DNA of 64,000 nucleotides from an uncultured Methanosarcinales archaeon (GCA_964637115.1 CAZWVL010000004.1:75258-139257); one strand, 5' to 3'; numbered from the stretch's first letter, positions 1,201 to 51,318 are shown. The notes: generated by a model from the sequence alone, not told the origin. Program-made: numbers and translations.

Positions 1201-4200
1201 AGTGTTCCAGTTCTTTTTCCAGTTCTTCTTTGTGTGTCTTGTAGTATTCTGCGGTTATCTTGAGTTTGTGGAACAGTTCTTCCATTTCTTCTTTTGATAG
1301 AAGTCCTGCTTTCAGAAGCTTGTATTTTACCAGCAGATCTTTCTGCTCGTCCTCGCCTAGTTCTTCGAGCATTGTGCGCAATTTCATTAATGGCGCTTCT
1401 GTTGTTGCTTTTTCTTTGTGTGCCATTTTGCGAAGTTGTTCGAGTGCTTCGTGGAATTTCTTTGGTGGAAGTGGTTTTTTCTTGATTTCTTTTTCCAGGG
1501 GAATCCAGTTTTTGTCTGGTAATTCTTCTTCTTTGGCGAACGTGCGCAGTTTTTCTATTTCGTCTTCAATGATTTTCTTTACTGGCTTTTCTTCTGCTTT
1601 TGCTGTTGGAACAACTGGTTTTCTTTTTTCTTTTTGTTGTAAAAGCACTATATAGCCCCCATATCCAATGCCTGTTATTGCCAGCAGTATGAATAACACT
1701 TTGAGGAATCCTAAAAATCCTGATGGCGGGTGGCTTGCGGGGTCTAGTGGGTCTGTTCCTTTTTCTACTTCAACACCGTCTTTCCATCCATCTCCATCCG
1801 TGTCTTTTTTAACCGGATTTGTTCCTAATTTGAATTCTTGTAAATTGGTTAGCTTGTCTTTGTCAGGGTCCGCGTCTTCAGCTGCTTCTGGGCAGTCGAT
1901 GCAGCCGAAATTGTCCATCCGCCACCTGTCGTTTATTTCGTCGCCGAGTGTAAAGGTTTGTGATGGCCCGCAGCCTCTTTCATCTATTTGCTCATCTGCC
2001 GGCGTGTTCAAACATTTGTCAACATCATCCGTTATTCCGTCAAGGTCTTCGTCTCCTGCTGGTTCTGAACTGCAAATTTTCAAGTCTAGCTTGCACCATA
2101 GTGGCGTTTCGCAGTCTATGTTTTCTTCGCAGTTCTTGCCTTCTTTGCATCTGTCGCATGGTCCTCCGCAGTCTATGTCTGTTTCGCCTGGGTCATTGAC
2201 TTTGTTTGCACAGGGCGGAGCATCAGTGCAAACACTTTTCAAAAGATCGCAGTATCCTGAATCACAGTCATCGTGTCTTATGCATCCTTTGTCGTTTTCG
2301 CATTTGTTGCATACTTGTCCACCGCAATCCACGTCTGATTCGAGACCGTTCATTACGCCGTCATCACATGCTGCAACTTTGCAAATGTTGTCTTGGCAGT
2401 AGTTTGTCGCGCAATCTTCGTTCGAAATGCACGCTGCTCCTTCAGGACAGCCGTCGCACTCTCCCCCACAGTCTACCCCTACTTCTCCAATACTCTTTTC
2501 GCCGTCTTGGCAAGGCTCTGGTTCTCTTGATATGTCCACTTTGACTCCATCACTTTCCATTGGCTCGCTGATCAAGCCAACTTGGCTTACTGCCTTGACT
2601 GAGAAGCTATAGCGTTTGTTGTTTTGCAGGGGTAATGGTGAACCGTTTTGTGTTCGCGAGATGTAGTGATACTCTCCATTCGTAACATTGCTTACTAAGT
2701 CTTTTATTACTATTTGTTTTTCCGGTAGTCCTTGTAATGTTACAAGGTAGTGTGATATATTGACATCTTCATCTTTTCCTTTGAACGCTACCCTTATCTT
2801 GCTCTTTGACCAAGTGATTTCTGGGTCGTCTTCAAACACTCCATCGTCCTTAACGTATTCCATTGTTGGCGGAGTTGTGTCTATCAGCACTGGTATTGTT
2901 ATGACGTCAGATTGTTCTCCTGACACGTGCATACACTTGACATAGTAGGTATAATCTCCTGGGTTGCTGACTGTTATAAACTGCCATTGTGTGTATCCTG
3001 AGGTGCACGCGCCCATACATCTTGTCGTATCATCTGGTCTTTCCCCAAAGTAGCAGAATACTCTTTTGTTTGCAACAACTCCAATGGTAAAGTTCAGAGT
3101 TCCAAATCCGATTGGCGTGCTGCTGGAAACATTTAATGGCAGGGATAAGTCAACCGTGAATGGCACGGATATTGGCTCCGAGACCAACTGATTTTTCCCT
3201 TTGCAGGTGATGTGGTAAGAATATGATTTTTTTTCTGTGACGTTTACCGGCGCTCCAAGGACTTGTTTTGGCAGTACGTCATATCCTGGAAACTTATTTT
3301 CCATTTGTGGGAAGTTGCTTGATATCAGTGAGTATTTGCAAAATCCTGGCTTGTCAAGCTGTACTTTGAGTGTTGTTGCGTAAATTTCTTTGGCCGGGAT
3401 GTATTGTTCTGCTATTACTGCGGGTTCTGCGTATGCTTTTACAATGTTTATCGGTTCTGTGTCTTGTGTGAGGTTGAATGTTCTTTGCACAATTCCGAAT
3501 TCTGCAAACTTGCAGTAGACGTGGATTGGATACTCGCGTTGTGCATTGAATGGTATCGCGACTTCTGTTGCCGTGTGGATTGTTCCTGTTCCTTCAAATG
3601 CTATGAAGATTTCAAAGTCTGATGGGTTTGGCGCTGTTGGAGTGTCGTATACGTATGCGCAGGTGCTTGGCAGTGGTGTTTCTATAGTCACGTTGAATAT
3701 TGAGAATGGTGTGACGCCAAATGCTGGTGCAAGCAGTCTGATACTTGGTTTTTTAGTCGCGATATAGAAGCTGCTTTGTTTGTAGATATCTAATCCATTG
3801 AAACCTTGCGCGTCTACTGCAATTGTAACTTTTCCTCCAACCACATTGTCTATTTTTGCAGTAAATGTTTGGTTGTTGGTTGTTTTGAATAATGTTGTAA
3901 TGTCTCTTGAGGTTTGTTTTGGAACATAAGGATCGTCAAATGCATCCGACAGCAATTGCACGGAATCGAGCGTGACTTGTTTGGTGAAATTTAATTCCAC
4001 GTCTACACTTGTTTTGTTGAAGTAGCTTCCATCTGGTGGAGTAATTGTTAAGCCGGCCAGTTCAGGGTCTACAACAAGTATGTAACTGATGCCTGGGGGA
4101 TCAACATAGATGTTTTTTGCGTTATGGCCATTGACGCTGAAATTGTACACTCCCAGCAAGTCTGATATTGGTACGAAGTTGTGCATTGCTGCCATTCCTG

Positions 4201-6277
4201 ATGTTTCTTGTTGCAGCGCAATGCCTTCTCCTGGTCGCGAAATATCTACATATGTTATTTGCGTTGGCTCGTCAAAGAGCATTGTGAATGTTGGCCGTTT
4301 TGCTGACGTGTAGATTGTCTTGCCGATTACTCTGCCTCCGGTGATATTGATTCCTAGCAGTCTTGGGCCGTTGCAGTTGTCGCAGCTGTAAATGTCAATG
4401 TGCTTGATTATTTCGAGATTGTTTGCCGCGTCTCTGCCGTAAAACCACAATGTGTTGTTTCCTGCAGAGAACTTGGCGACTGTTTTGTTGCCGTCTTTTA
4501 GTACCGTGTTCTTCAAGCTCAATCTTGTTGAGTTTGTCACAATGCTGTACGATTGCGCATTTAGGCAGGAATTGGTCGAATTTTGTACGCAAAGATATGC
4601 TTTGTATCCTGGCATGCCAGTATAGTCTTGCAGCGGGCTTGTTTTGTTTATCTTGTCAAACAATCTAATGTTGATGTAGTCTACTCTGTTTGCCTGGCCT
4701 GTTGGAATTAATGTTGACAGTGGAGGGAAGTAATCCATTTCGCAAGTTTTGTTTCCTGGCTTGCAGTCTTGGAATCCTGCTCCTGTGCTTCCGTCTGCGT
4801 TTTTGACACAGCCTACTGCCAGTCTGTATTCGCAAACTCCTATGCTGCAGATATCTGTGCTTTTTTGCGCTATGCTGTTATCTGGGTTTAGTCTGATTCC
4901 GTCAACTGGTGAGTTACATTGCAATGAAGTATAATCTGAACAGGATGCCTCATCACAGGTCTTGCTTACTTTTCTGTCCTTGTCAAAAAAGCACGGGTAG
5001 AGTGAGTTGCTTAGCGCGTTGCTTTTTTCTTCACGGCAGGCATCCCATATTAAGCTTGCTACGTCTGCATTTTCTATGCCTGTCGTGCCGTTTACGCTGC
5101 AGAGTTTGCAGTTGTTGTATCTTCTGTCGATGCACACTCCCACTCCTAAATCTTCGTATACATTGTTCCATTGGCATTCTCCTGCTCCGCAGTTGTCTTT
5201 CGCGCAGGCAGCTTTGCTTTTGTAGTCATAGCAAGTCATTTTAGGATCGCAGTTGTAGCACTTGTCTTTTACTGTGATGCTTTTATCATAGAAACAGTAA
5301 CGCGGGATATTTCCGAATAAATCGCAGGTTTGCGGAGTGGCATAAAGGCCGAATGGGTCAAATCCGTTGCTGCAGATTTCGCGGGTTGCACAGCGTGGTC
5401 CTTTTTCGTCTGAAATGCAAAACTCGTTCTTTCTGAAATCGCATTGCACTTTCGGACTTGGTTCTATCAGACGATTTTGGTCGTTGCAAAGCCAGGCCTT
5501 GTTTAGGCTTGTTGCGAATGTTACGTTAACATTTATTCCAAATGAAGAGGTGAATGCGAGTGCCTCTGTTCCTCCATAGCCGAATTTGGTCAGATAACTT
5601 CTGAATTGGTCATAGTAGAAGTAATTGACGCAGAAAGTGTTTTCTTGTTGGTGCCAGCATTCAATGTCTCCTGCATTGCCTGTTGCAGAGGCTGGATCGC
5701 TGTCTCCTGCAATGGTGTAGTGGGCTACAACAGAATACGTGTAATCCATATTAAATTCGAGGTCCACATCTTCATCTGTGAAAACTGTTGCTGAGGGCGT
5801 TATCGCAATGCTTTTGAAATTCTCACATCCTGTTCCCGCACAACGCGATATGTTCAGATAGTCTGCCGTGCATGGCAGGATGAACGTTAGTCTCAACGCT
5901 TTTTTTCCCTTGATTGATATTATGTTCAAATTTTCCGGTGCTGGTTTGTATGCGGGACTGCCGCATCCGGTGATGATTGGCGCGCAGTCTCCTGGACAGG
6001 CTGTTGCTGTTTCTCCTGGTTGGCAGACGCCGTCTCCGCAGAGTACCGCTCCGGGTGGAGCGAGTGTTGCGTTGCAGTGTTTGCTACACGTGATTGCAAT
6101 GCTCGGAGGCGGGCCGATAAATGTGAAACCCCGTTCTGCGCATTCTGCTGGTGTTGAGAAGCTGCCGTTCTTGACAACTGGGTCGCAGCAGCAGCCGACT
6201 TCTTGTGCGCTTGAGAAGAGCGGTATGGCTAGCAGAATTGCTGCAATAATTGTTGTTATGATTATCGCTCTTCGCAT
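1178..6277 (-). CDS. Giant (1699 aa) Cys-rich type I membrane surface protein, putative adhesin
   Basis: Sec-type signal MRRAIIITTIIAAILLAIPLFSSAQE and very many Cys. Three tandem DCGG-x-C modules. Asp-rich Ca-binding-type repeats (DTDGDGWKDGVEVEKGTDPLDP, DEDLDGITDDVDKC). One TM (FLGFLKVLFILLAITGIGYGGYIVLL) is followed by a 153-aa K/E-rich tail. Confidence 0.85.
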   Translation of the reverse strand: MRRAIIITTIIAAILLAIPLFSSAQEVGCCCDPVVKNGSFSTPAECAERGFTFIGPPPSIAITCSKHCNATLAPPGAVLCGDGVCQPGETATACPGDCAPIITGCGSPAYKPAPENLNIISIKGKKALRLTFILPCTADYLNISRCAGTGCENFKSIAITPSATVFTDEDVDLEFNMDYTYSVVAHYTIAGDSDPASATGNAGDIECWHQQENTFCVNYFYYDQFRSYLTKFGYGGTEALAFTSSFGINVNVTFATSLNKAWLCNDQNRLIEPSPKVQCDFRKNEFCISDEKGPRCATREICSNGFDPFGLYATPQTCDLFGNIPRYCFYDKSITVKDKCYNCDPKMTCYDYKSKAACAKDNCGAGECQWNNVYEDLGVGVCIDRRYNNCKLCSVNGTTGIENADVASLIWDACREEKSNALSNSLYPCFFDKDRKVSKTCDEASCSDYTSLQCNSPVDGIRLNPDNSIAQKSTDICSIGVCEYRLAVGCVKNADGSTGAGFQDCKPGNKTCEMDYFPPLSTLIPTGQANRVDYINIRLFDKINKTSPLQDYTGMPGYKAYLCVQNSTNSCLNAQSYSIVTNSTRLSLKNTVLKDGNKTVAKFSAGNNTLWFYGRDAANNLEIIKHIDIYSCDNCNGPRLLGINITGGRVIGKTIYTSAKRPTFTMLFDEPTQITYVDISRPGEGIALQQETSGMAAMHNFVPISDLLGVYNFSVNGHNAKNIYVDPPGISYILVVDPELAGLTITPPDGSYFNKTSVDVELNFTKQVTLDSVQLLSDAFDDPYVPKQTSRDITTLFKTTNNQTFTAKIDNVVGGKVTIAVDAQGFNGLDIYKQSSFYIATKKPSIRLLAPAFGVTPFSIFNVTIETPLPSTCAYVYDTPTAPNPSDFEIFIAFEGTGTIHTATEVAIPFNAQREYPIHVYCKFAEFGIVQRTFNLTQDTEPINIVKAYAEPAVIAEQYIPAKEIYATTLKVQLDKPGFCKYSLISSNFPQMENKFPGYDVLPKQVLGAPVNVTEKKSYSYHITCKGKNQLVSEPISVPFTVDLSLPLNVSSSTPIGFGTLNFTIGVVANKRVFCYFGERPDDTTRCMGACTSGYTQWQFITVSNPGDYTYYVKCMHVSGEQSDVITIPVLIDTTPPTMEYVKDDGVFEDDPEITWSKSKIRVAFKGKDEDVNISHYLVTLQGLPEKQIVIKDLVSNVTNGEYHYISRTQNGSPLPLQNNKRYSFSVKAVSQVGLISEPMESDGVKVDISREPEPCQDGEKSIGEVGVDCGGECDGCPEGAACISNEDCATNYCQDNICKVAACDDGVMNGLESDVDCGGQVCNKCENDKGCIRHDDCDSGYCDLLKSVCTDAPPCANKVNDPGETDIDCGGPCDRCKEGKNCEENIDCETPLWCKLDLKICSSEPAGDEDLDGITDDVDKCLNTPADEQIDERGCGPSQTFTLGDEINDRWRMDNFGCIDCPEAAEDADPDKDKLTNLQEFKLGTNPVKKDTDGDGWKDGVEVEKGTDPLDPASHPPSGFLGFLKVLFILLAITGIGYGGYIVLLQQKEKRKPVVPTAKAEEKPVKKIIEDEIEKLRTFAKEEELPDKNWIPLEKEIKKKPLPPKKFHEALEQLRKMAHKEKATTEAPLMKLRTMLEELGEDEQKDLLVKYKLLKAGLLSKEEMEELFHKLKITAEYYKTHKEELEKELEHYGKRHKR

Positions 6278-17094: not shown

Positions 17095-17904
17095 TCACTT
17101 AAAAGACGGATCTTTCATGCCTTTCCAGGCGGTGTTGAACATTCCTTCCAGTGCCCCTGCAAAGAATGGTGTGTTGACCCAGATGCCGACATCGTAGGTT
17201 GGATGTACTTCCTGGTCGTCCATTATCATGAATACCAGTTCCTTTCCGTCGACGATGCAGAAACGCGCCTTGCTATCTGTATGCTTTACTTCTGCAACGC
17301 TCTGGATGTCTTGTACGGCGTTCTTTGTTTCTTTTGTTAATTGCGCAGCGATGCGGACTTTGACTCCCTTTTTCTTTAATTTTTCAAACACTGGTTTTAG
17401 TCCTTCAACTTTGCGCATGAAGCCTTGCGGTGTCGTCATGATTGTAACGCTTTTTTGCGCGTTGCGGATGACTAGTTCCAAATGTGAATACAAATTGTGC
17501 CGACCGCGTAAGCTTCCGGAAAGTTCTGTTGGCTCAACTAATTCTACGCCTTGTGTGTGCAGTGTGTTTAATTCTCCGAGAACATCTGTTTTCTTGAGGT
17601 CTTCGAGTCTTTTAACACGCTCGTTTGCTTCTTCACTTAAGTTCTTCTTGACTCTTTCAAGGACTTCTCCTGGAGCAACTGCAATGTACTTTATAGGCTT
17701 GCCAAGTTTCATTATGACGAAGCCTTTTCTTTCTAGTGATTCGAGAACATCGTAGCTTCTGCTTCTTGGGACGTTTGCAATGTCGGAAAGTTCGCCTGCT
17801 GTTGCAACGCCACGTGATAACAGTGCTGTCCAGATCTTGACTTCATATAAGTTCAGGACAAAGTAGCGCCTGAGCTTGCTTAAAAATTCTTCCTTGACTA
17901 TCAT
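17095..17904 (-). CDS. TrmB-family transcriptional regulator (paralog 1)
   Basis: wHTH segment LYEVKIWTALLSRGVATAGELSDIANVPRSRSYDVLESLERKGFVIMKLGKPIKYIAV. Strong SD (GGGGGGAGGT) 5 nt upstream of the ATG. Confidence 0.85.
   Translation of the reverse strand: MIVKEEFLSKLRRYFVLNLYEVKIWTALLSRGVATAGELSDIANVPRSRSYDVLESLERKGFVIMKLGKPIKYIAVAPGEVLERVKKNLSEEANERVKRLEDLKKTDVLGELNTLHTQGVELVEPTELSGSLRGRHNLYSHLELVIRNAQKSVTIMTTPQGFMRKVEGLKPVFEKLKKKGVKVRIAAQLTKETKNAVQDIQSVAEVKHTDSKARFCIVDGKELVFMIMDDQEVHPTYDVGIWVNTPFFAGALEGMFNTAWKGMKDPSFK
17650..17835. repeat. Dispersed ~185-bp paralogous block (TrmB wHTH-coding segment), copy 1
   Basis: By-eye alignment to 38243-38428 gives roughly 85% nucleotide identity. 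Differences are mostly synonymous, and 52 aa are identical. Confidence 0.8.
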
Positions 17905-17926
17905 TGATACCTCCCCCCTTTTTGCG

Positions 17927-35439: not shown

Positions 35440-35510
35440 CGTTAACCACCTCAAAAAGCCCAAAACAGCCTTGTTTATTTAAAATTTGCCATTTTCGTTC
35501 TTTTTTAATA

Positions 35511-35566
35511 ATTTCCGACGAACAAGCCCGACTGAACGGAGTTCAGAGGGCATTGTGAGGAGTGTT
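35511..35566. repeat. Conserved ~56-nt structured intergenic element, copy A (candidate small RNA or cis-element)
   Basis: ATTTCCGACGAACAAGCCCGACTGAACGGAGTTCAGAGGGCATTGTGAGGAGTGTT. A second copy lies at 51223-51277. All stem differences between the copies are compensatory. Confidence 0.7.
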
Positions 35567-35606
35567 TTAGAAAGTAATTTATGCTGCGAATTGTCTTGCT
35601 GTTGTT

Positions 35607-37714: not shown

Positions 37715-38509
37715 TTAGTTCTTGTCCCAGATCATGTTGAACATGTTTTCGAATGATTTGGCGAAGTTTGCCGCGCTGACCCAGACGCCGAAGTCGTAGT
37801 TCGGGTGTATATCTGCATCGTCAAGAACCATAAAAGTAACCTGTTTGCCGTCTACAACGCAGAAGCGTGCTGGCAACGCATCAACATTCTTTATCTGTGC
37901 GAACTGCGCAAGCACTTTTGATTGTGCTTTTGTTGGCACGAGAATCTTTATGCGCACTCCTCTTTCTTTTGCTTTTTGGAATACGTTTTTAAAAGCCTCT
38001 GTTTTTCTGTTCAATCCAGATTCAGTTGTCATCAAGCAAACGGTTTTTTCTGCGCTTTTGATTGTTGAAGCAAGATGGTTGTAAAGGTTGGTTCTTCCCC
38101 TTACTGCGCCTGTTAAATCGGCGGGTTCAACAAGTTCAATACCTTGTTTGTGGAGAACGTTTAATTCTCCCAAAACTTCGCTTTTCTTCAGGCTTTCTAT
38201 TAGGTCTGCTTGTTTGTCAGCATCATCCTTGATTGCCTTTTTGACTCTTTCAAGGACTTCTGCTGGAGGAACTGCGATATATTTTATTGGTTTGCCAAGC
38301 TTCATTATGACAAATCCTTTTCGTTCTAATGATTCGAGAACATCATAACTTCTGCTTCTAGGAACGTTTGCAATATCAGAAAGTTCGCCTGCTGTTGCAA
38401 CACCACGTGATAATAGTGCTGTCCAAAGCTTTGCTTCGTAGCTGTTCAATCCAAAATCCTTGAGCTTATTCAAAAAATCCTTTTGAACTATCATTGTGGT
38501 GTACCCCAA
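37715..38509 (-). CDS. TrmB-family transcriptional regulator (paralog 2)
   Basis: Its wHTH matches paralog 1 over 52 identical residues (WTALLSRGVATAGELSDIANVPRSRSYDVLESLERKGFVIMKLGKPIKYIAV). The C-terminal domain is diverged. Confidence 0.85.
   Translation of the reverse strand: MGYTTMIVQKDFLNKLKDFGLNSYEAKLWTALLSRGVATAGELSDIANVPRSRSYDVLESLERKGFVIMKLGKPIKYIAVPPAEVLERVKKAIKDDADKQADLIESLKKSEVLGELNVLHKQGIELVEPADLTGAVRGRTNLYNHLASTIKSAEKTVCLMTTESGLNRKTEAFKNVFQKAKERGVRIKILVPTKAQSKVLAQFAQIKNVDALPARFCVVDGKQVTFMVLDDADIHPNYDFGVWVSAANFAKSFENMFNMIWDKN
38243..38428. repeat. Dispersed ~185-bp paralogous block (TrmB wHTH-coding segment), copy 2
   Basis: See 17650-17835. Confidence 0.8.
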
Positions 38510-38611
38510 TATTCATGTTGTTACTCATCCGTAGGTATAACCCATATATAAATGTTTCCGTTTTTCACCCTTCATTAGTAATAAAAACACGGCTTTTAAA
38601 GGAATGATAGT

Positions 38612-38637
38612 CACCCTCCCCTATTTCCTATGCAAAT
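38612..38637 (-). repeat. ORB-like box (inverted, shorter spacer)
   Basis: The reverse complement reads ATTTGCATAGGAAATAGGGGAGGGTG: a TGCA-TAG-GAAA core plus a G-run, with 2 nt between GAAA and GGGG instead of 4. Confidence 0.45.
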
Positions 38638-38777
38638 CGCCTTATTGTTATTCTGATGATTCTTCTTTATTATTATATTATATCTATATAGAAAATAATT
38701 ATAATAACAATCACTCTCTTCACAACTCACTCTTAAAAACAAACAAAACAATAAAACACCCTTTTCCCTTCACTACC

Positions 38778-38798
38778 GTTCCATACGAAACCAAGGGG
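38778..38798 (+). repeat. ORB-like box with G-string
   Basis: GTTCCATACGAAACCAAGGGG follows the pattern TCCA-N3-GAAA-YC-N2-GGGG. The box at 51163-51184 shares this pattern. Confidence 0.6.
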
Positions 38799-38837
38799 TG
38801 TCTCCTCTCCAAAAGTTTATATATAACTATCGCTGCT

Positions 38838-38858
38838 GGTTCCATACGCAAAAAAGCC
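38838..38858 (+). repeat. Mini-ORB-like box (core only)
   Basis: GGTTCCATACGCAAAAAAGCC repeats the GTTCCATACG core of 38778-38787 but has no G-string. Confidence 0.45.
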
Positions 38859-38892
38859 AAAAAGGAGGTTTTTTTGTAAAGTTGGTGATTTC

Positions 38893-40110
38893 ATGAAGGA
38901 AAAGGGGTTGGTTGACTTTTTTGAGAAGTTCTTAGAAAAGAAACCGGTTTTCAAGGATAAAACGATTTTGCAGTCAAATTATAGTCCAAGTACAATCTTG
39001 CACAGAGATGAACAAATGCAACAATTGGCAAACATGCTTGCTCCAGCGTTAAGATTGGAAAAGCCCTCTAATGTTTTCGTTTATGGAAAGACAGGAACAG
39101 GCAAAACACTAACCGTAAAATACACAGCTCAACAATTGTCAGAAATTGCAGCACAAAAAAAGCTCCCACTCAAAGTCATTTATCTTAATTGTAAGCTGAA
39201 AAAACTTGCAGATACTGAGTATCGTTTGGTCGCTCAGCTTTTGCGCGAATATGGAAAGAACATTCCTACAACAGGCCTGCCGACTGATGAAGTTTATCAT
39301 ATTTTTTATAGGATAATTGACAAGGAAAAGCACATTCTGTTGCTGATTTTGGACGAAATTGATCAGCTGATTGGCAAGGCCGGTGACGAACTGCTGTACA
39401 ATCTTACCCGAATCAACGCTGAGCTGAAAAACACGCAGATTACGCTTGTCGGAATTTCAAATGATCTAGTTTTTACTGACTCGCTTGATCCAAGAGTAAA
39501 GAGTTCGCTGAGTGAAGAAGATTTGGTTTTTCCTCCTTATAATGCTGAGCAGATTCAGAACATTTTGCAACAGCGCGCCAAGTTGGCCTTCAGTCCTGGG
39601 ATTGTTGAAGATGGTGTGTTGGAAAAGTGTGCCGCTTTTGCTGCCAGGGAGCACGGTGACGCACGACGCGCGTTGGAATTGCTCAGAGTTTCTGGCGAAC
39701 TGGCAGAGCGCCAGAACGAAAGCAAAATAAGCATTGCGCATCTTGACCAGGCTGAGGAAAAAATCGAGCGTGATAGGATTCTTGATCTGGTTTCAACACA
39801 GCCTAAACAGTATCAGGTCACCTTATTCTCAATTTTGAACGCCTGCAACCAAAAACAGGGTGTTTTTACCGGTGAGATTTATTCATTGTACGAGCGCTGC
39901 TGTTCGCAGACCGGCTTGCGTCCGTTGACTCAGCGCCGCGTGAGCGACATTATTGCTGAATTGGATATGCTGGGCATCATTAATGCCAAGGTCATCAGCA
40001 AGGGTAGGTATGGGCGTACAAGGGAAATCAGCATCGGCACAAATGACGGCATTACTCAGAAAATCAGGGGTATTTTGAATGAAGAGCTTGGGTTGTCATG
40101 GAGCAGTTAG
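38893..40110 (+). CDS. cdc6: Orc1/Cdc6 replication initiator
   Basis: AAA+ Walker A VFVYGKTGTGKT, Walker B LLILDEIDQL and a C-terminal winged helix (RRVSDIIAELDMLGIINAKVISKGRYGRT). Confidence 0.95.
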   Translation: MKEKGLVDFFEKFLEKKPVFKDKTILQSNYSPSTILHRDEQMQQLANMLAPALRLEKPSNVFVYGKTGTGKTLTVKYTAQQLSEIAAQKKLPLKVIYLNCKLKKLADTEYRLVAQLLREYGKNIPTTGLPTDEVYHIFYRIIDKEKHILLLILDEIDQLIGKAGDELLYNLTRINAELKNTQITLVGISNDLVFTDSLDPRVKSSLSEEDLVFPPYNAEQIQNILQQRAKLAFSPGIVEDGVLEKCAAFAAREHGDARRALELLRVSGELAERQNESKISIAHLDQAEEKIERDRILDLVSTQPKQYQVTLFSILNACNQKQGVFTGEIYSLYERCCSQTGLRPLTQRRVSDIIAELDMLGIINAKVISKGRYGRTREISIGTNDGITQKIRGILNEELGLSWSS

Positions 40111-51162: not shown

Positions 51163-51184
51163 AACCCCACGATTTCCACTGGAG
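51163..51184 (-). repeat. ORB-like box with G-string upstream of mcm
   Basis: The reverse complement CTCCAGTGGAAATCGTGGGGTT is the classical archaeal ORB core (TCCAGTGGAAA) plus a G-run. It has the same spacing as the origin box at 38778-38798. Confidence 0.6.
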
Positions 51185-51222
51185 TTTATCGACGAGAAAA
51201 TGCAAAGGTTTGTAATTTAATT

Positions 51223-51277
51223 ATTTCGACGAACAAGCGCGACATAACGGAGTTATGAGCGCATTGTGAGAAGTGTT
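51223..51277. repeat. Conserved ~56-nt structured intergenic element, copy B
   Basis: ATTTCGACGAACAAGCGCGACATAACGGAGTTATGAGCGCATTGTGAGAAGTGTT. See copy A at 35511-35566. Confidence 0.7.
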
Positions 51278-51300
51278 AATGTCCGAAGGACCAATATGCA

Positions 51301-51318
51301 GAATAAAAGAAAATAATT
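51301..51318 (-). terminator. T-rich tract downstream of tbp
   Basis: Minus strand reads CAGCAATTATTTTCTTTTATTC immediately after the tbp stop (51323-51325). Archaeal termination typically uses oligo-T. Confidence 0.35.

What the first reader, a model, noticed from the sequence alone, without database searches (positions are those of the whole stretch)
35511..35566. Conserved ~56-nt intergenic element present twice, with three compensatory base-pair changes
**The two copies**
- Copy A (35511-35566): ATTTCCGACGAACAAGCCCGACTGAACGGAGTTCAGAGGGCATTGTGAGGAGTGTT.
- Copy B (51223-51277): ATTTCGACGAACAAGCGCGACATAACGGAGTTATGAGCGCATTGTGAGAAGTGTT.

**Differences**
- They differ by one indel and seven substitutions.
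- Six of the seven substitutions form three compensatory pairs in one interrupted hairpin: GCCC-GA-CTGAAC-GGA-GTTCAG-A-GGGC versus GCGC-GA-CATAAC-GGA-GTTATG-A-GCGC.
- Base pairing is therefore preserved rather than sequence, while the single-stranded flanks (CGACGAACAAG and GCATTGTGAG-AGTGTT) are invariant.
- Weak similarity extends ~10 nt upstream (TTTAAT-ATTT).

**Context**
- Copy A lies between the histone and hjc promoters.
- Copy B lies between mcm and tbp, next to an ORB-like box.
- I see no C/D-box or H/ACA signature and cannot tell the transcribed strand.
- This is a good candidate for an undescribed small RNA or RNA/DNA-level regulatory hairpin tied to chromatin and replication genes.
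Basis: seen in the sequence. Interest (0 to 1): 0.65.

Follow-up and report, generated by a model that had tools for sequence, protein, structure and literature searches.

The report
Strand-locked hairpin repeat in Woesearchaeota
The two look-alike intergenic hairpins are real members of an undescribed family of about 80-base structured repeats scattered through Woesearchaeota (DPANN archaea) genomes, always pointing the same way relative to the genome's strand bias, and they are not specific to chromatin or replication genes.

Summary
Copies A (35512-35586) and B (51223-51301) are the only two in the window, and their differences are compensatory. Pattern scans and a covariation model recovered about 40 further copies in Woesearchaeota/Nanoarchaeota contigs. 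No Rfam family matches.

Each unit has:
- an invariant "foot" (UUYC-GAC-GA-ACAA ... A-UUGU-GA-GGAGU)
- a hypervariable, strongly covarying hairpin capped by GGA
- often a GC mini-hairpin (GCGAAGC, CCGAAGG)
- an AUGCWG end

Neighbouring genes are diverse, so the link to chromatin and replication genes fails. Orthologous sites can be filled, empty or hold a different variant, and copies recombine.

Copies at one locus always share a strand. In every locus that strand is the G- and T-rich one, also at synonymous sites of genes on both strands. No promoter sits at a fixed distance.

Best reading (about 0.45): a DNA-level element whose sense strand folds when single-stranded, REP-, IS200/IS605-end- or attC-like, with the enzyme unknown.

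Main rival (about 0.3): a small RNA whose foot is a textbook protein-dependent K-turn for L7Ae.

No informative RNA data exist.

The parts
35512..35586 (+). Copy A, whole unit: foot, variable hairpin, U-rich tail and AUGCUG end
   Evidence: Sequence. Covariation-model hit 35505-35575, 96.6 bits. The 3' limit is set by analogy with the filled/empty comparison at site B and by the family-wide end motif.
35512..35525 (+). A, 5' foot strand: UUUCC (possible C-helix), GAC (3-nt bulge), GA, ACAA (pairs with UUGU)
   Evidence: ACAA/UUGU covaries to ACUC/GAGU in variants found only by the model.
35526..35551 (+). A, variable hairpin GCCC-GA-CUGAAC [GGA] GUUCAG-A-GGGC; loop at 35538-35540
   Evidence: Folds. 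Covariation counts.
35552..35564 (+). A, 3' foot strand: bulged A, UUGU, GA, GGAG, UG
   Evidence: Invariant or nearly invariant columns.
35565..35586 (+). A, U-rich tail and end motif (AUGCUG at 35581-35586). It overlaps the TTTATGCTG box that sits about 30 nt before the hjc start codon
51223..51301 (+). Copy B, whole unit
   Evidence: Model hit 51216-51286, 87.7 bits. Relatives and co-occurring strains skip about 51191/51199 to 51323 and carry about 24-34 other letters there. This puts the right boundary after ATGCAG(A).
51223..51236 (+). B, 5' foot strand: AUUUC, GAC, GA, ACAA
51237..51262 (+). B, variable hairpin GCGC-GA-CAUAAC [GGA] GUUAUG-A-GCGC; loop at 51249-51251
51263..51275 (+). B, 3' foot strand: A, UUGU, GA, GAAG, UG
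51281..51291 (+). B, mini-hairpin GUCC-GAA-GGAC (CCGAAGG core)
   Evidence: Predicted in the DNA fold. The stem covaries across copies: GGC/GCC, GCC/GGC, GUCC/GGAC, GGGC/GCCC.
51296..51301 (+). B, end motif AUGCAG
35500..35511 (.). AT-rich, TATA-like box abutting A. This is context, probably not part of the unit
   Evidence: TATA-like 8-mers start at -15 to -11 in 13 of 22 independent flank groups. The box is kept at the empty site L010 and is absent at L046.
51211..51222 (.). AT-rich, TATA-like box abutting B (context)

Best explanation
A and B are two members of an undescribed family of roughly 75-130-nt dispersed repeats in Woesearchaeota-lineage (DPANN) archaea. The family most likely acts as DNA, not as an independently transcribed RNA.

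Shown:
- Only one strand (the + strand here) makes the good structure.
- That strand is always the G- and T-rich strand of the surrounding chromosome. Under the standard deamination model of replication skew (background knowledge) this is the strand most often exposed as the template for lagging-strand synthesis.

Inferred mechanism:
- When that strand is single-stranded the unit snaps into a compact fold built from sheared G.A pairs.
- The fold has a GA-zippered foot, a covarying stem capped by a GNA triloop, and often a GCGAAGC- or CCGAAGG-type mini-hairpin.
- A structure- and strand-specific enzyme acting in trans recognises the folded form. An HUH/Y1-type transposase or a recombinase is the best guess. 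None was identified.
- This would explain four things that are shown: the orientation lock, arrival at and loss from intergenic sites, swapping of variants at one site, and recombination between copies that gains or loses the genes between them.

The element is not specific to the histone, hjc, mcm or tbp genes. In the window it simply occupies two intergenic spacers.
For: 1. Family and structure: about 40 copies with strong covariation.
2. One-strand folding: the variable hairpin is more stable on the + strand in 19 copies, on the - strand in 2, with 9 ties. G.U outnumbers A.C 61 to 12.
3. Orientation lock, whole loci: on the element's sense strand AT skew is below 0 in 31 of 31 loci and GC skew above 0 in 27 of 31.
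4. Orientation lock, synonymous sites: the same asymmetry holds at third codon positions of genes on both strands (AT3 -0.39 and -0.54; GC3 +0.22 and +0.25). It was checked on mcm and tbp against hjc and tfe and on every long ORF of the window. This covers about 18 independent loci, although most coding lies on the element's strand in only 7 of 22 loci.
5. Co-orientation: all copies within each multi-copy locus share a strand (window 2, L016 3, L021 4, L025 5, L027 2, L031 2, L036 2).
6. No promoter at a fixed distance. A TATA-like box abuts the 5' end in 13 of 22 flank groups. That would start + strand transcription at about +17, inside the hairpin. It fits the divergent neighbour instead, whose start codon lies 30-45 nt away in about 10 copies.
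7. Loops: nearly all structural loops are C-GNA-G or C-GNNA-G (GGA, GAA, GUA, GCA, GCCA, GCUA). No GNRA or UNCG tetraloop is present. GCGNAGC and GCGNNAGC are the 'mini-hairpin DNA' motifs, much more stable as DNA than as RNA and found at ssDNA priming sites (PMC13037366).
8. Mobility and recombination at the two window sites. The hjc site is filled in the window, L006, L008, L020, L029 and L043, and empty in L010. The mcm-tbp site holds a short form in the window and a long form in L046. It is empty in L048 and in co-occurring strains, and L045 and L047 carry other inserts.
9. Variant swapping. L043 is 92% identical to the window in the flanks yet carries the hairpin type of the 75%-identical L029.
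10. Recombination between copies. L021 copy 4055 combines the 5' part of L025 copy 4377 with the 3' part of copy 2911. The 388-aa NUMOD3 gene between them is missing.
11. Few G.U intermediates in the clean stems: 4, against 6 other mismatches.
Against: - The invariant foot fits the RNA K-turn definition very well, and a K-turn needs 2'-OH groups.
- The 3' module (GC mini-hairpin, U-rich tract, unit end) looks like a transcript end.
- No transposase or recombinase gene was found near any copy. This is a weak test: tblastn with three remembered sequences over 407 kb and Pfam on 20 neighbours.
- There are no terminal inverted repeats, no convincing target-site duplication, and only one large hairpin per unit.
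- The strand asymmetry does not flip anywhere in the held DNA, including at the likely origin upstream of cdc6. Its replication origin is therefore inferred, not shown.
- The two independent tRNA genes seen (the orthologous L017/L018 pair and the intron-bearing one in L019) also lie on the G/T-rich strand. RNA genes may therefore share this orientation.
- Pattern scans forced CGACGAACAA and TTGTGAGGAG, so part of the foot's 'invariance' is ascertainment.
Confidence: 0.45

Rival explanations
1. K-turn small RNA. The + strand is transcribed, or processed out of longer transcripts, into a 55-85-nt RNA. Its 5' and 3' flanks form a protein-dependent kink-turn: C-helix UUYC/GGAG with -1b:-1n = C:G, a 3-nt bulge GAC, tandem G.A and A.G pairs, and an NC helix ACAA/UUGU with 3b:3n = A:U. 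The K-turn sits at the base of a covarying hairpin. L7Ae binds it, protects the ends and defines an RNP of unknown role, such as an L7Ae sponge, a scaffold or a degenerate box C/D relative. The GC mini-hairpin and U-rich tract would act as terminator.
For: - The foot matches the K-turn definition point by point (3-nt bulge followed by tandem G:A pairs, -1b:-1n usually C:G; PMC6298567). It occurs only on the + strand.
- The bulge GAC resembles the GAU bulge of the l7ae 5'-UTR K-turns. From memory, it also resembles the GAA bulge of Kt-7 (GGCGAAGAACC).
- The NC helix covaries in copies found without the pattern.
- In B the G-to-A change in GGAG faces U instead of C.
- A Watson-Crick 3b:3n pair predicts folding only when protein binds, as in box C/D and l7ae leaders.
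- The unit ends at a hairpin plus U-rich motif.
- From background knowledge, archaeal C/D sRNA genes are known to lack their own promoters and to move around genomes.
Against: - No promoter sits at a consistent distance. The abutting TATA-like box would start transcription inside the hairpin.
- Many copies are wedged between a divergent start codon 30-45 nt away and a convergent gene end.
- The C-helix is often only 2-3 pairs. Its 3' strand GGAGU stays invariant while the 5' partner varies.
- A no-bulge pairing, (CGA)2 against (GAG)2, explains the same invariant letters.
- Some variants replace the G.A pairs with Watson-Crick pairs or A.A.
- Loops are GNA/GNNA, never GNRA or UNCG.
- The 100% orientation lock to the G/T-rich strand is not expected of ordinary sRNA genes when protein genes show no such bias.
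- No RNA reads were found, but the libraries are uninformative.
Confidence: 0.3
2. Host replication-linked DNA signal that is not mobile. The hairpins form on the lagging-strand template and serve the replisome. They might exclude single-strand-binding protein and mark primase or restart sites, in the manner of phage G4 origin and RSF1010 ssiA mini-hairpins. Alternatively they act as polar fork or segregation signals.
For: - The orientation lock to strand asymmetry.
- The GCGAAGC and CCGAAGG mini-hairpins are the same motifs as at ssDNA priming sites (PMC13037366).
- B lies beside a conserved ORB-like box upstream of mcm.
Against: - Copies are dispensable at orthologous sites.
- They are densest in accessory gene islands.
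- They number only a few per genome and are irregularly spaced.
- Nothing ties them to fork biology directly.
Confidence: 0.1
3. Double-stranded promoter-proximal element. The unit is a binding site or portable upstream module for the divergent gene. The reverse complement of its 5' end (CGTCGGAAAT) would serve as a BRE next to the abutting TATA box.
For: - In about two-thirds of copies the 5' end faces a divergent gene start.
- In about 10 copies the start codon is 30-45 nt away, the spacing expected of a leaderless promoter.
- CGGAAAT fits the BRE consensus CRNAANT (consensus from memory).
Against: - A duplex protein site gives no reason for a covarying palindrome with strand-specific G.U and G.A pairs.
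- About a third of copies follow a same-strand gene end or have no divergent neighbour.
- The TATA-like box stays at the empty site L010 and is missing at L046.
Confidence: 0.05

Closest known systems
IS200/IS605 transposon ends, their miniature derivatives (PATEs), and bacterial REP elements mobilised by RAYT (HUH/Y1) enzymes
   Same: - Short imperfect hairpins with conserved unpaired or bulged bases at the foot.
- Recognised on one DNA strand only.
- No terminal inverted repeats and no target duplication.
- Orientation biased towards the lagging-strand template.
- Intergenic, dispersed, and recombination-prone.
   Different: - No Y1 transposase was found.
- There is one large hairpin per unit rather than left- and right-end hairpins.
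- No defined tetranucleotide target was demonstrated, only a TTY preference 5' of the unit.
- Copy number is low (a few to about ten per genome).
- The lineage is archaeal DPANN, and the foot also reads as an RNA K-turn.
Integron attC sites (for example Vibrio VCRs)
   Same: - Folded single-strand substrate of 55-140 nt.
- Conserved base helices with extrahelical bases and an unpaired spacer, and a sequence-free variable top.
- Co-oriented arrays separated by one or a few accessory genes, including toxin-antitoxin genes.
- Site-by-site recombination that removes the intervening gene and leaves a hybrid site.
   Different: - The core sites RYYYAAC and GTTRRRY are absent.
- No integrase is nearby.
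- Genes between copies point either way and keep their own promoters.
- Copies also sit singly in core housekeeping loci.
L7Ae-binding K-turn stem-loops (l7ae 5'-UTR regulators, box C/D terminal K-turn, Kt-7)
   Same: - C:G at -1, a 3-nt bulge beginning GA, tandem G.A/A.G pairs, and a weak C-helix.
- The C-helix contains a GGAG (Shine-Dalgarno-like) run.
- A Watson-Crick 3b:3n pair implies folding only on protein binding.
   Different: - No C box (RUGAUGA), D box (CUGA) or guide regions.
- Not in front of l7ae or any consistent ORF.
- No start codon at Shine-Dalgarno distance.
- Transcription is unproven.
- The family behaves like a mobile repeat.
Mini-hairpin DNA (GCGNAGC/GCGNNAGC) at single-strand initiation sites (phage G4 origin, RSF1010 ssiA)
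   Same: - The same loop and closing-pair rule (C-GNA-G, C-GNNA-G).
- Located on a strand expected to be single-stranded during replication.
   Different: - Those sites are single and plasmid- or phage-borne, with demonstrated primase use.
- Here the motifs are part of a larger chromosomal repeat of unknown use.

Membership tests
K-turn (kink-turn) RNA motif | A 3-nt bulge followed on the same strand by G,A that form tandem sheared G.A/A.G pairs with a GA on the opposite strand | tested here: met
   GAC-GA ... GA occurs in 29 of 30 aligned copies; L006 has AA on the 3' strand. The motif is on the + strand only. Ascertainment caveat: the scans fixed these letters. Among copies found without the pattern, most keep it and three variant types do not.
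K-turn (kink-turn) RNA motif | A canonical (C) helix before the bulge, usually with -1b:-1n = C:G, and a non-canonical helix after the G.A pairs | tested here: inconclusive
   C13:G56 is invariant and the NC helix ACAA/UUGU covaries to ACUC/GAGU. However, the C-helix is 2-5 pairs, mostly U.G, and shows almost no two-sided covariation.
K-turn (kink-turn) RNA motif | Exists as RNA and is bound and folded by an L7Ae-family protein | not testable with these tools
   Metatranscriptome contigs gave nothing. No L7Ae gene lies in the held DNA.
Box C/D sRNA | C box RUGAUGA and D box CUGA, plus C'/D' boxes and 10-12-nt guides complementary to rRNA or tRNA | tested here: not met
   The corresponding letters are ACGAACA and GUGA. 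The interior is a self-paired covarying hairpin of 26 nt, not guides.
H/ACA sRNA | A hairpin with a pseudouridylation pocket, an apical K-turn or K-loop, and a 3' ACA box | tested here: not met
   The K-turn-like motif is at the base, not the apex. There is no pocket and no ACA after the stem.
IS200/IS605 ends, PATE, REP | Strand-specific hairpin with orientation tied to the lagging-strand template | tested here: met
   + strand folding. The sense strand is the G/T-rich strand in all loci, also at synonymous sites of genes on both strands. That this asymmetry comes from replication is inferred.
IS200/IS605 ends, PATE, REP | A cognate HUH/Y1 transposase (TnpA or RAYT) in the genome | tested here: inconclusive
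   tblastn with two remembered TnpA sequences over 407 kb of held DNA found nothing. Whole genomes were not available.
IS200/IS605 ends, PATE, REP | Left- and right-end hairpins, with insertion 3' of a fixed 4-5-nt target and no duplication | tested here: inconclusive
   Each unit has one large hairpin plus a mini-hairpin. The 5' junction prefers TTY. No duplication was found. ATGCARA occurs on both sides of B and at the empty L010 site, but not consistently elsewhere.
Integron attC | Core sites R'' RYYYAAC and R' GTTRRRY pairing at the base | tested here: not met
   The base reads UUYC GAC GA ACAA / UUGU GA GGAG. There is no GTTRRRY.
Integron attC | Co-oriented arrays next to an integron integrase gene | tested here: inconclusive
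   Co-oriented arrays exist, with 5 copies in 10.5 kb (L025) and 4 in 8 kb (L021). No integrase is on these short contigs.
MITE | Terminal inverted repeats and a target-site duplication | tested here: not met
   The ends CGACGAAC... and ...AUGCAG are not inverted repeats, and no consistent duplication is seen.

The most novel reading that the evidence does not exclude
Woesearchaeota carry a previously unseen single-strand DNA recombination or transposition system. Its site is this GA-zippered, GNA-capped hairpin. It would be active on the lagging-strand template and would shuffle accessory genes (toxin-antitoxin genes, homing-endonuclease-like genes and small ORFs) between co-oriented copies. 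That would make it an archaeal counterpart of REP/RAYT or integron cassettes, with an unrelated site and an unidentified enzyme. Alternatively, and equally novel, it is a new class of L7Ae K-turn RNP RNA in DPANN archaea.
Probability: 0.25. Interest if true: 0.85.

Novelty: new variant of a known kind. Interest (0 to 1): 0.6.

Why it matters
DPANN archaea are known almost only from metagenomes, and their non-coding repertoire is essentially uncharted. This family gives a defined, searchable element with a covariation model and clear anatomy.

- It marks intergenic insertion hot spots and recombination junctions.
- It is locked to one chromosomal strand.
- If it is a single-strand DNA site, it points to an unrecognised mobile or recombination system that shapes accessory gene islands in reduced genomes. 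It would also give a ready marker of replication direction in fragmentary assemblies.
- If it is an RNA, it would be a new L7Ae-type RNP.
- Either way, the element should not be read as a regulator of histone, hjc or mcm expression.

Tried and rejected
- **Known RNA families.** Rfam at gathering and at permissive thresholds gave nothing credible. ARAGORN found no tRNA or tmRNA in the window. Split-tRNA halves, box C/D and H/ACA were rejected on box sequences and geometry.
- **Att sites of a 15.7 kb island.** The two copies as attL/attR were rejected. The copies differ by compensated changes, and the region between them is core (cdc6, PolD, mcm).
- **Small ORF or Shine-Dalgarno sequestration.** GGAG is never followed by a conserved start codon at the right distance, and the AUG after B is not conserved.
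- **5' UTR or 3' UTR element of a neighbour.** Rejected because copies occur in every orientation relative to their neighbours.
- **The 49-52-nt insertion as a bulge-helix-bulge intron.** The insertion lies between CAUUG and UGAGGAG in L021, L036 and L046. No BHB geometry is present. It is a two-hairpin module that pairs with both foot strands (CGUC with GACG; UUUCCGAC with GGAG). It was left unexplained.
- **Target-site duplication and terminal inverted repeats.** ATGCARA flanks B and marks the empty L010 site, but the pattern is inconsistent elsewhere.
- **AUGCWG as a genome-wide signal.** The motif is not enriched in the window.
- **Origin association.** There is a single ORB-like core near B at chance frequency. 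There is no skew flip at the cdc6-upstream AT-rich region.
- **Viral origin.** No match in viral contigs.
- **Expression.** Metatranscriptome contigs from two studies hold nothing over the elements. These libraries are uninformative for RNAs under 100 nt.
- **Protein partners in held DNA.** tblastn for L7Ae, Nop5, fibrillarin, Y1 transposases and Xer gave no hits. Sequences were remembered, so these are weak tests.
- **Automatic loop census.** Too noisy. Loop types were tabulated by eye.

Full report
**1. The observation**

- Copy A (35511-35566) and copy B (51223-51277) are present as written, both on the + strand.
- They are the only copies in the window. This follows from pattern searches with up to three mismatches, the repeat finder and a covariation model scored at every position (96.6 and 87.7 bits; next best 12.4 bits).
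- Six of the seven internal substitutions are three double-compensated pairs in one interrupted hairpin.
- An ungapped alignment removes the supposed indel. It places the seventh change (G to A in GAGGAG) opposite a C-to-U change.
- Both strands fold better than shuffles, as RNA and as DNA.
- Pfam confirms the context: histone (-), hjc and tfe (+) around A, and mcm (-) and tbp (-) around B.
- tbp and mcm are tandem on the - strand, so B lies antisense in the spacer between them.

**2. A family, not a pair**

- Hjc and TBP homologues place the window in Woesearchaeota/Nanoarchaeia.
- Syntenic histone-hjc spacers carry the element in L006 and L008 and lack it in L010.
- One scan each of the genome and metagenome collections, followed by model searches, gave about 40 distinct copies. 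All lie on Woesearchaeota- or Nanoarchaeota-type contigs, with two to at least five copies per genome bin. Three pattern hits without a hairpin were discarded.
- Viral contigs hold no copy.
- Rfam 15 has no matching family.
- In the source metagenomes, depth over the element is 3-5 times that of its flanks. Assembly graphs break inside it.

**3. Anatomy**

From 5' to 3' the unit consists of:
- a foot strand, UUYC-GAC-GA-ACAA
- a 26-nt hairpin of about 7 bp, a one-base 5' bulge, 4 bp and a GGA loop; in about half the copies a G.A/A.G step replaces two pairs
- a bulged A, then UUGU-GA-GGAG-U(G/C)U
- a U-rich linker
- in about two-thirds of copies, a 3-4-bp GC mini-hairpin
- 3-8 bases later, the end motif (U)UAUGC(A/U)G

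The right boundary comes from the mcm-tbp spacer. The window and L046 are filled. L048 and co-occurring strains are empty, and the shared flank resumes just after ATGCAG(A). So A spans about 35512-35586 and B about 51223-51301.

A long form carries a conserved 49-52-nt two-hairpin module inserted between CAUUG and UGAGGAG (L021, L036, L046).

**4. Structure is selected, on one strand**

- In 30 distinct copies 88.9% of cells pair, against 75.4 +/- 0.9% in shuffles and 32-45% with slid partners.
- There are 68 doubly changed cells against 17.8 +/- 3.0 (0 of 500 shuffles).
- 9-11 hairpin pairs carry two-sided changes, several of them with four pair types.
- The hairpin columns were free (N) in the search patterns, so this result is unbiased.
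- The foot letters were fixed by the patterns, so their invariance is partly ascertainment.
- Copies found only by synteny or by the model show the foot helix ACAA/UUGU covarying to ACUC/GAGU.
- The + strand is the structured one. G.U outnumbers A.C 61 to 12, and the variable hairpin is more stable on + in 19 copies against 2, with 9 ties.

**5. It is not about chromatin or replication genes**

- Neighbours are diverse: a ribonucleotide-reductase-like gene, rpS15, an XPD-like helicase, rpoN and rps9, a tRNA, PIN, nucleotidyltransferase, DUF2283, Bro-N, DprA, a NUMOD3 endonuclease-like gene and lipoproteins.
- Copies sit between divergent, convergent and tandem genes. They are therefore not a UTR of a particular neighbour.
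- About two-thirds have a divergent gene start on the 5' side.
- In about ten copies the start codon is only 30-45 nt away. The AT box abutting the element is then that gene's TATA box.

**6. Dynamics**

- The hjc and mcm sites are each filled, empty or differently filled among relatives.
- L043 is 92% identical to the window across the locus. Yet its hairpin differs at about 8 of 26 positions and matches the type of L029, which is 75% identical.
- L025 has five co-oriented copies in 10.5 kb and L021 has four in 8 kb.
- L021's copy at 4055 joins the 5' part of L025 copy 4377 to the 3' part of copy 2911. It lacks the 388-aa NUMOD3 gene that lies between them.
- L025 copy 1757 and L021 copy 5206 share the upstream flank but differ in hairpin, tail and downstream genes.
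- Copies therefore recombine and mark synteny breaks.

**7. The orientation lock**

- Every multi-copy locus has all its copies on one strand.
- On the element's sense strand, AT skew is negative in 31 of 31 loci and GC skew positive in 27 of 31.
- The asymmetry holds at third codon positions of genes on both strands. Same-strand genes show AT3 -0.39 and GC3 +0.22. Opposite-strand genes, read on the element strand, show AT3 -0.54 and GC3 +0.25.
- mcm and tbp have A3 far above T3 and C3 above G3, while hjc and tfe show the reverse.
- Every long ORF of the window behaves this way.
- With about 18 independent loci, the lock is far beyond chance. It is independent of gene direction.
- Background knowledge attributes this kind of synonymous, transcription-independent G+T excess to the strand most exposed as lagging-strand template.
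- No skew flip lies within the held DNA, not even at the AT-rich, repeat-bearing region upstream of cdc6. The replication link is therefore inferred.

**8. Weighing RNA against DNA**

For RNA:
- The foot is a textbook K-turn: C:G at -1, a 3-nt bulge GAC, tandem G.A/A.G pairs, and a Watson-Crick 3b:3n pair. That last feature predicts folding only on L7Ae binding, as in box C/D and l7ae leaders (PMC6298567).
- The unit ends with a hairpin followed by a U-rich tract.

Against RNA:
- No promoter lies at a fixed distance, and the abutting TATA-like box would start transcription inside the stem.
- The C-helix is weak and does not covary. The same letters also pair without a bulge, as (CGA)2 against (GAG)2.
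- Structural loops follow the C-GNA-G / C-GNNA-G rule of DNA mini-hairpins, including GCGAAGC and CCGAAGG themselves. These are far less stable as RNA (PMC13037366). None is GNRA or UNCG.
- G.U intermediates are scarce in the clean stems.
- The orientation lock and the repeat-like dynamics fit single-strand DNA elements such as IS200/IS605 ends, REP and attC.

I therefore commit to a DNA-level, strand-specific hairpin element at about 0.45. The K-turn RNA stands at about 0.3. A non-mobile replication signal (0.1) and a duplex promoter module (0.05) rank lower.

The enzyme, the exact ends and any transcript remain unknown. The available metatranscriptomes were uninformative.

**9. Novelty**

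No described family fits.
- Box C/D, H/ACA, attC core sites and MITE ends were tested and are not met.
- The K-turn and IS200/REP-like criteria are partly met.

It is best filed as a new variant among structured dispersed repeats. The two more exciting readings, a new archaeal single-strand DNA recombination system or a new K-turn RNP, are both open and directly testable.

Noticed in passing
window 1-64000 (every ORF of at least 120 aa): There is a very strong strand asymmetry at synonymous sites, uniform over the whole window. Read on the + strand, T3 exceeds A3 and G3 exceeds C3 for genes on either strand (AT3 skew -0.05 to -0.80). No flip occurs anywhere. The ribosomal-protein operon (52-64 kb) lies on the strand opposite the G/T-rich one.
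   Followed up: partly
window 38495-38907 (between a TrmB-like gene and cdc6/orc1): This is a likely replication-origin-like spacer. It has a 100-nt AT-rich stretch (38650-38760) and two GTTCCATACG(A/C)AA repeats (38778 and 38839). It is followed by cdc6 and PolD DP1-DP2, as in Pyrococcus. Neither GC nor AT skew changes sign here.
   Followed up: partly
window 51173-51184; L045-L048 upstream of mcm: A dyad box TTTCCNNTGGAR (ORB-like core) and an ATATTAAAAAGGTTTATGG promoter region are conserved upstream of mcm in all relatives. The spacer just beyond the box is an insertion hot spot: the element, its long form, a 72-aa ORF, a 129-aa ORF, or nothing.
   Followed up: partly
L021 6912, L036 10306, L046 3714-3590 (sense strand): The long form of the element carries a 49-52-nt two-hairpin module at one fixed position inside the 3' foot strand. 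Its ends pair with both foot strands, and its hairpins covary (AUC/GAU to AGC/GCU). Its origin and role are unexplained.
   Followed up: partly
window 17531-17906 and 38124-38496: Two paralogous TrmB-family regulator genes (269 and 264 aa) share 74-85% DNA identity over about 370 nt. One of them sits next to the cdc6-upstream spacer.
   Followed up: no
L019 about 4440-4550 (- strand): A tRNA-like gene (GGGCCCGTAGCTCAG...GGTTCAAATCCCACCGGGCCCG) has a long insertion and was missed by ARAGORN. It is probably an intron-containing tRNA about 125 nt downstream of an element copy.
   Followed up: no
L025 2951-4117: A 388-aa gene with a NUMOD3 motif and a C-terminal nuclease-like region lies between two element copies. 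It is absent from the syntenic L021, consistent with a mobile homing-endonuclease-like gene.
   Followed up: partly
L013, L018, L020 (record titles): Short contigs carrying the element are binned as Nitrosopumilaceae or Methanosarcinales MAGs. Their content (hjc locus, Woesearchaeota-like flanks) suggests mis-binning.
   Followed up: no
L015, L016 997, L021 6912, L027 1259, L030, L032, L036, L044 (-70 to -1 of the element): One subfamily has a conserved 5' extension of about 70 nt. It carries two TTGTCCAGTG boxes and a hairpin plus T-run. Its function is unknown.
   Followed up: no
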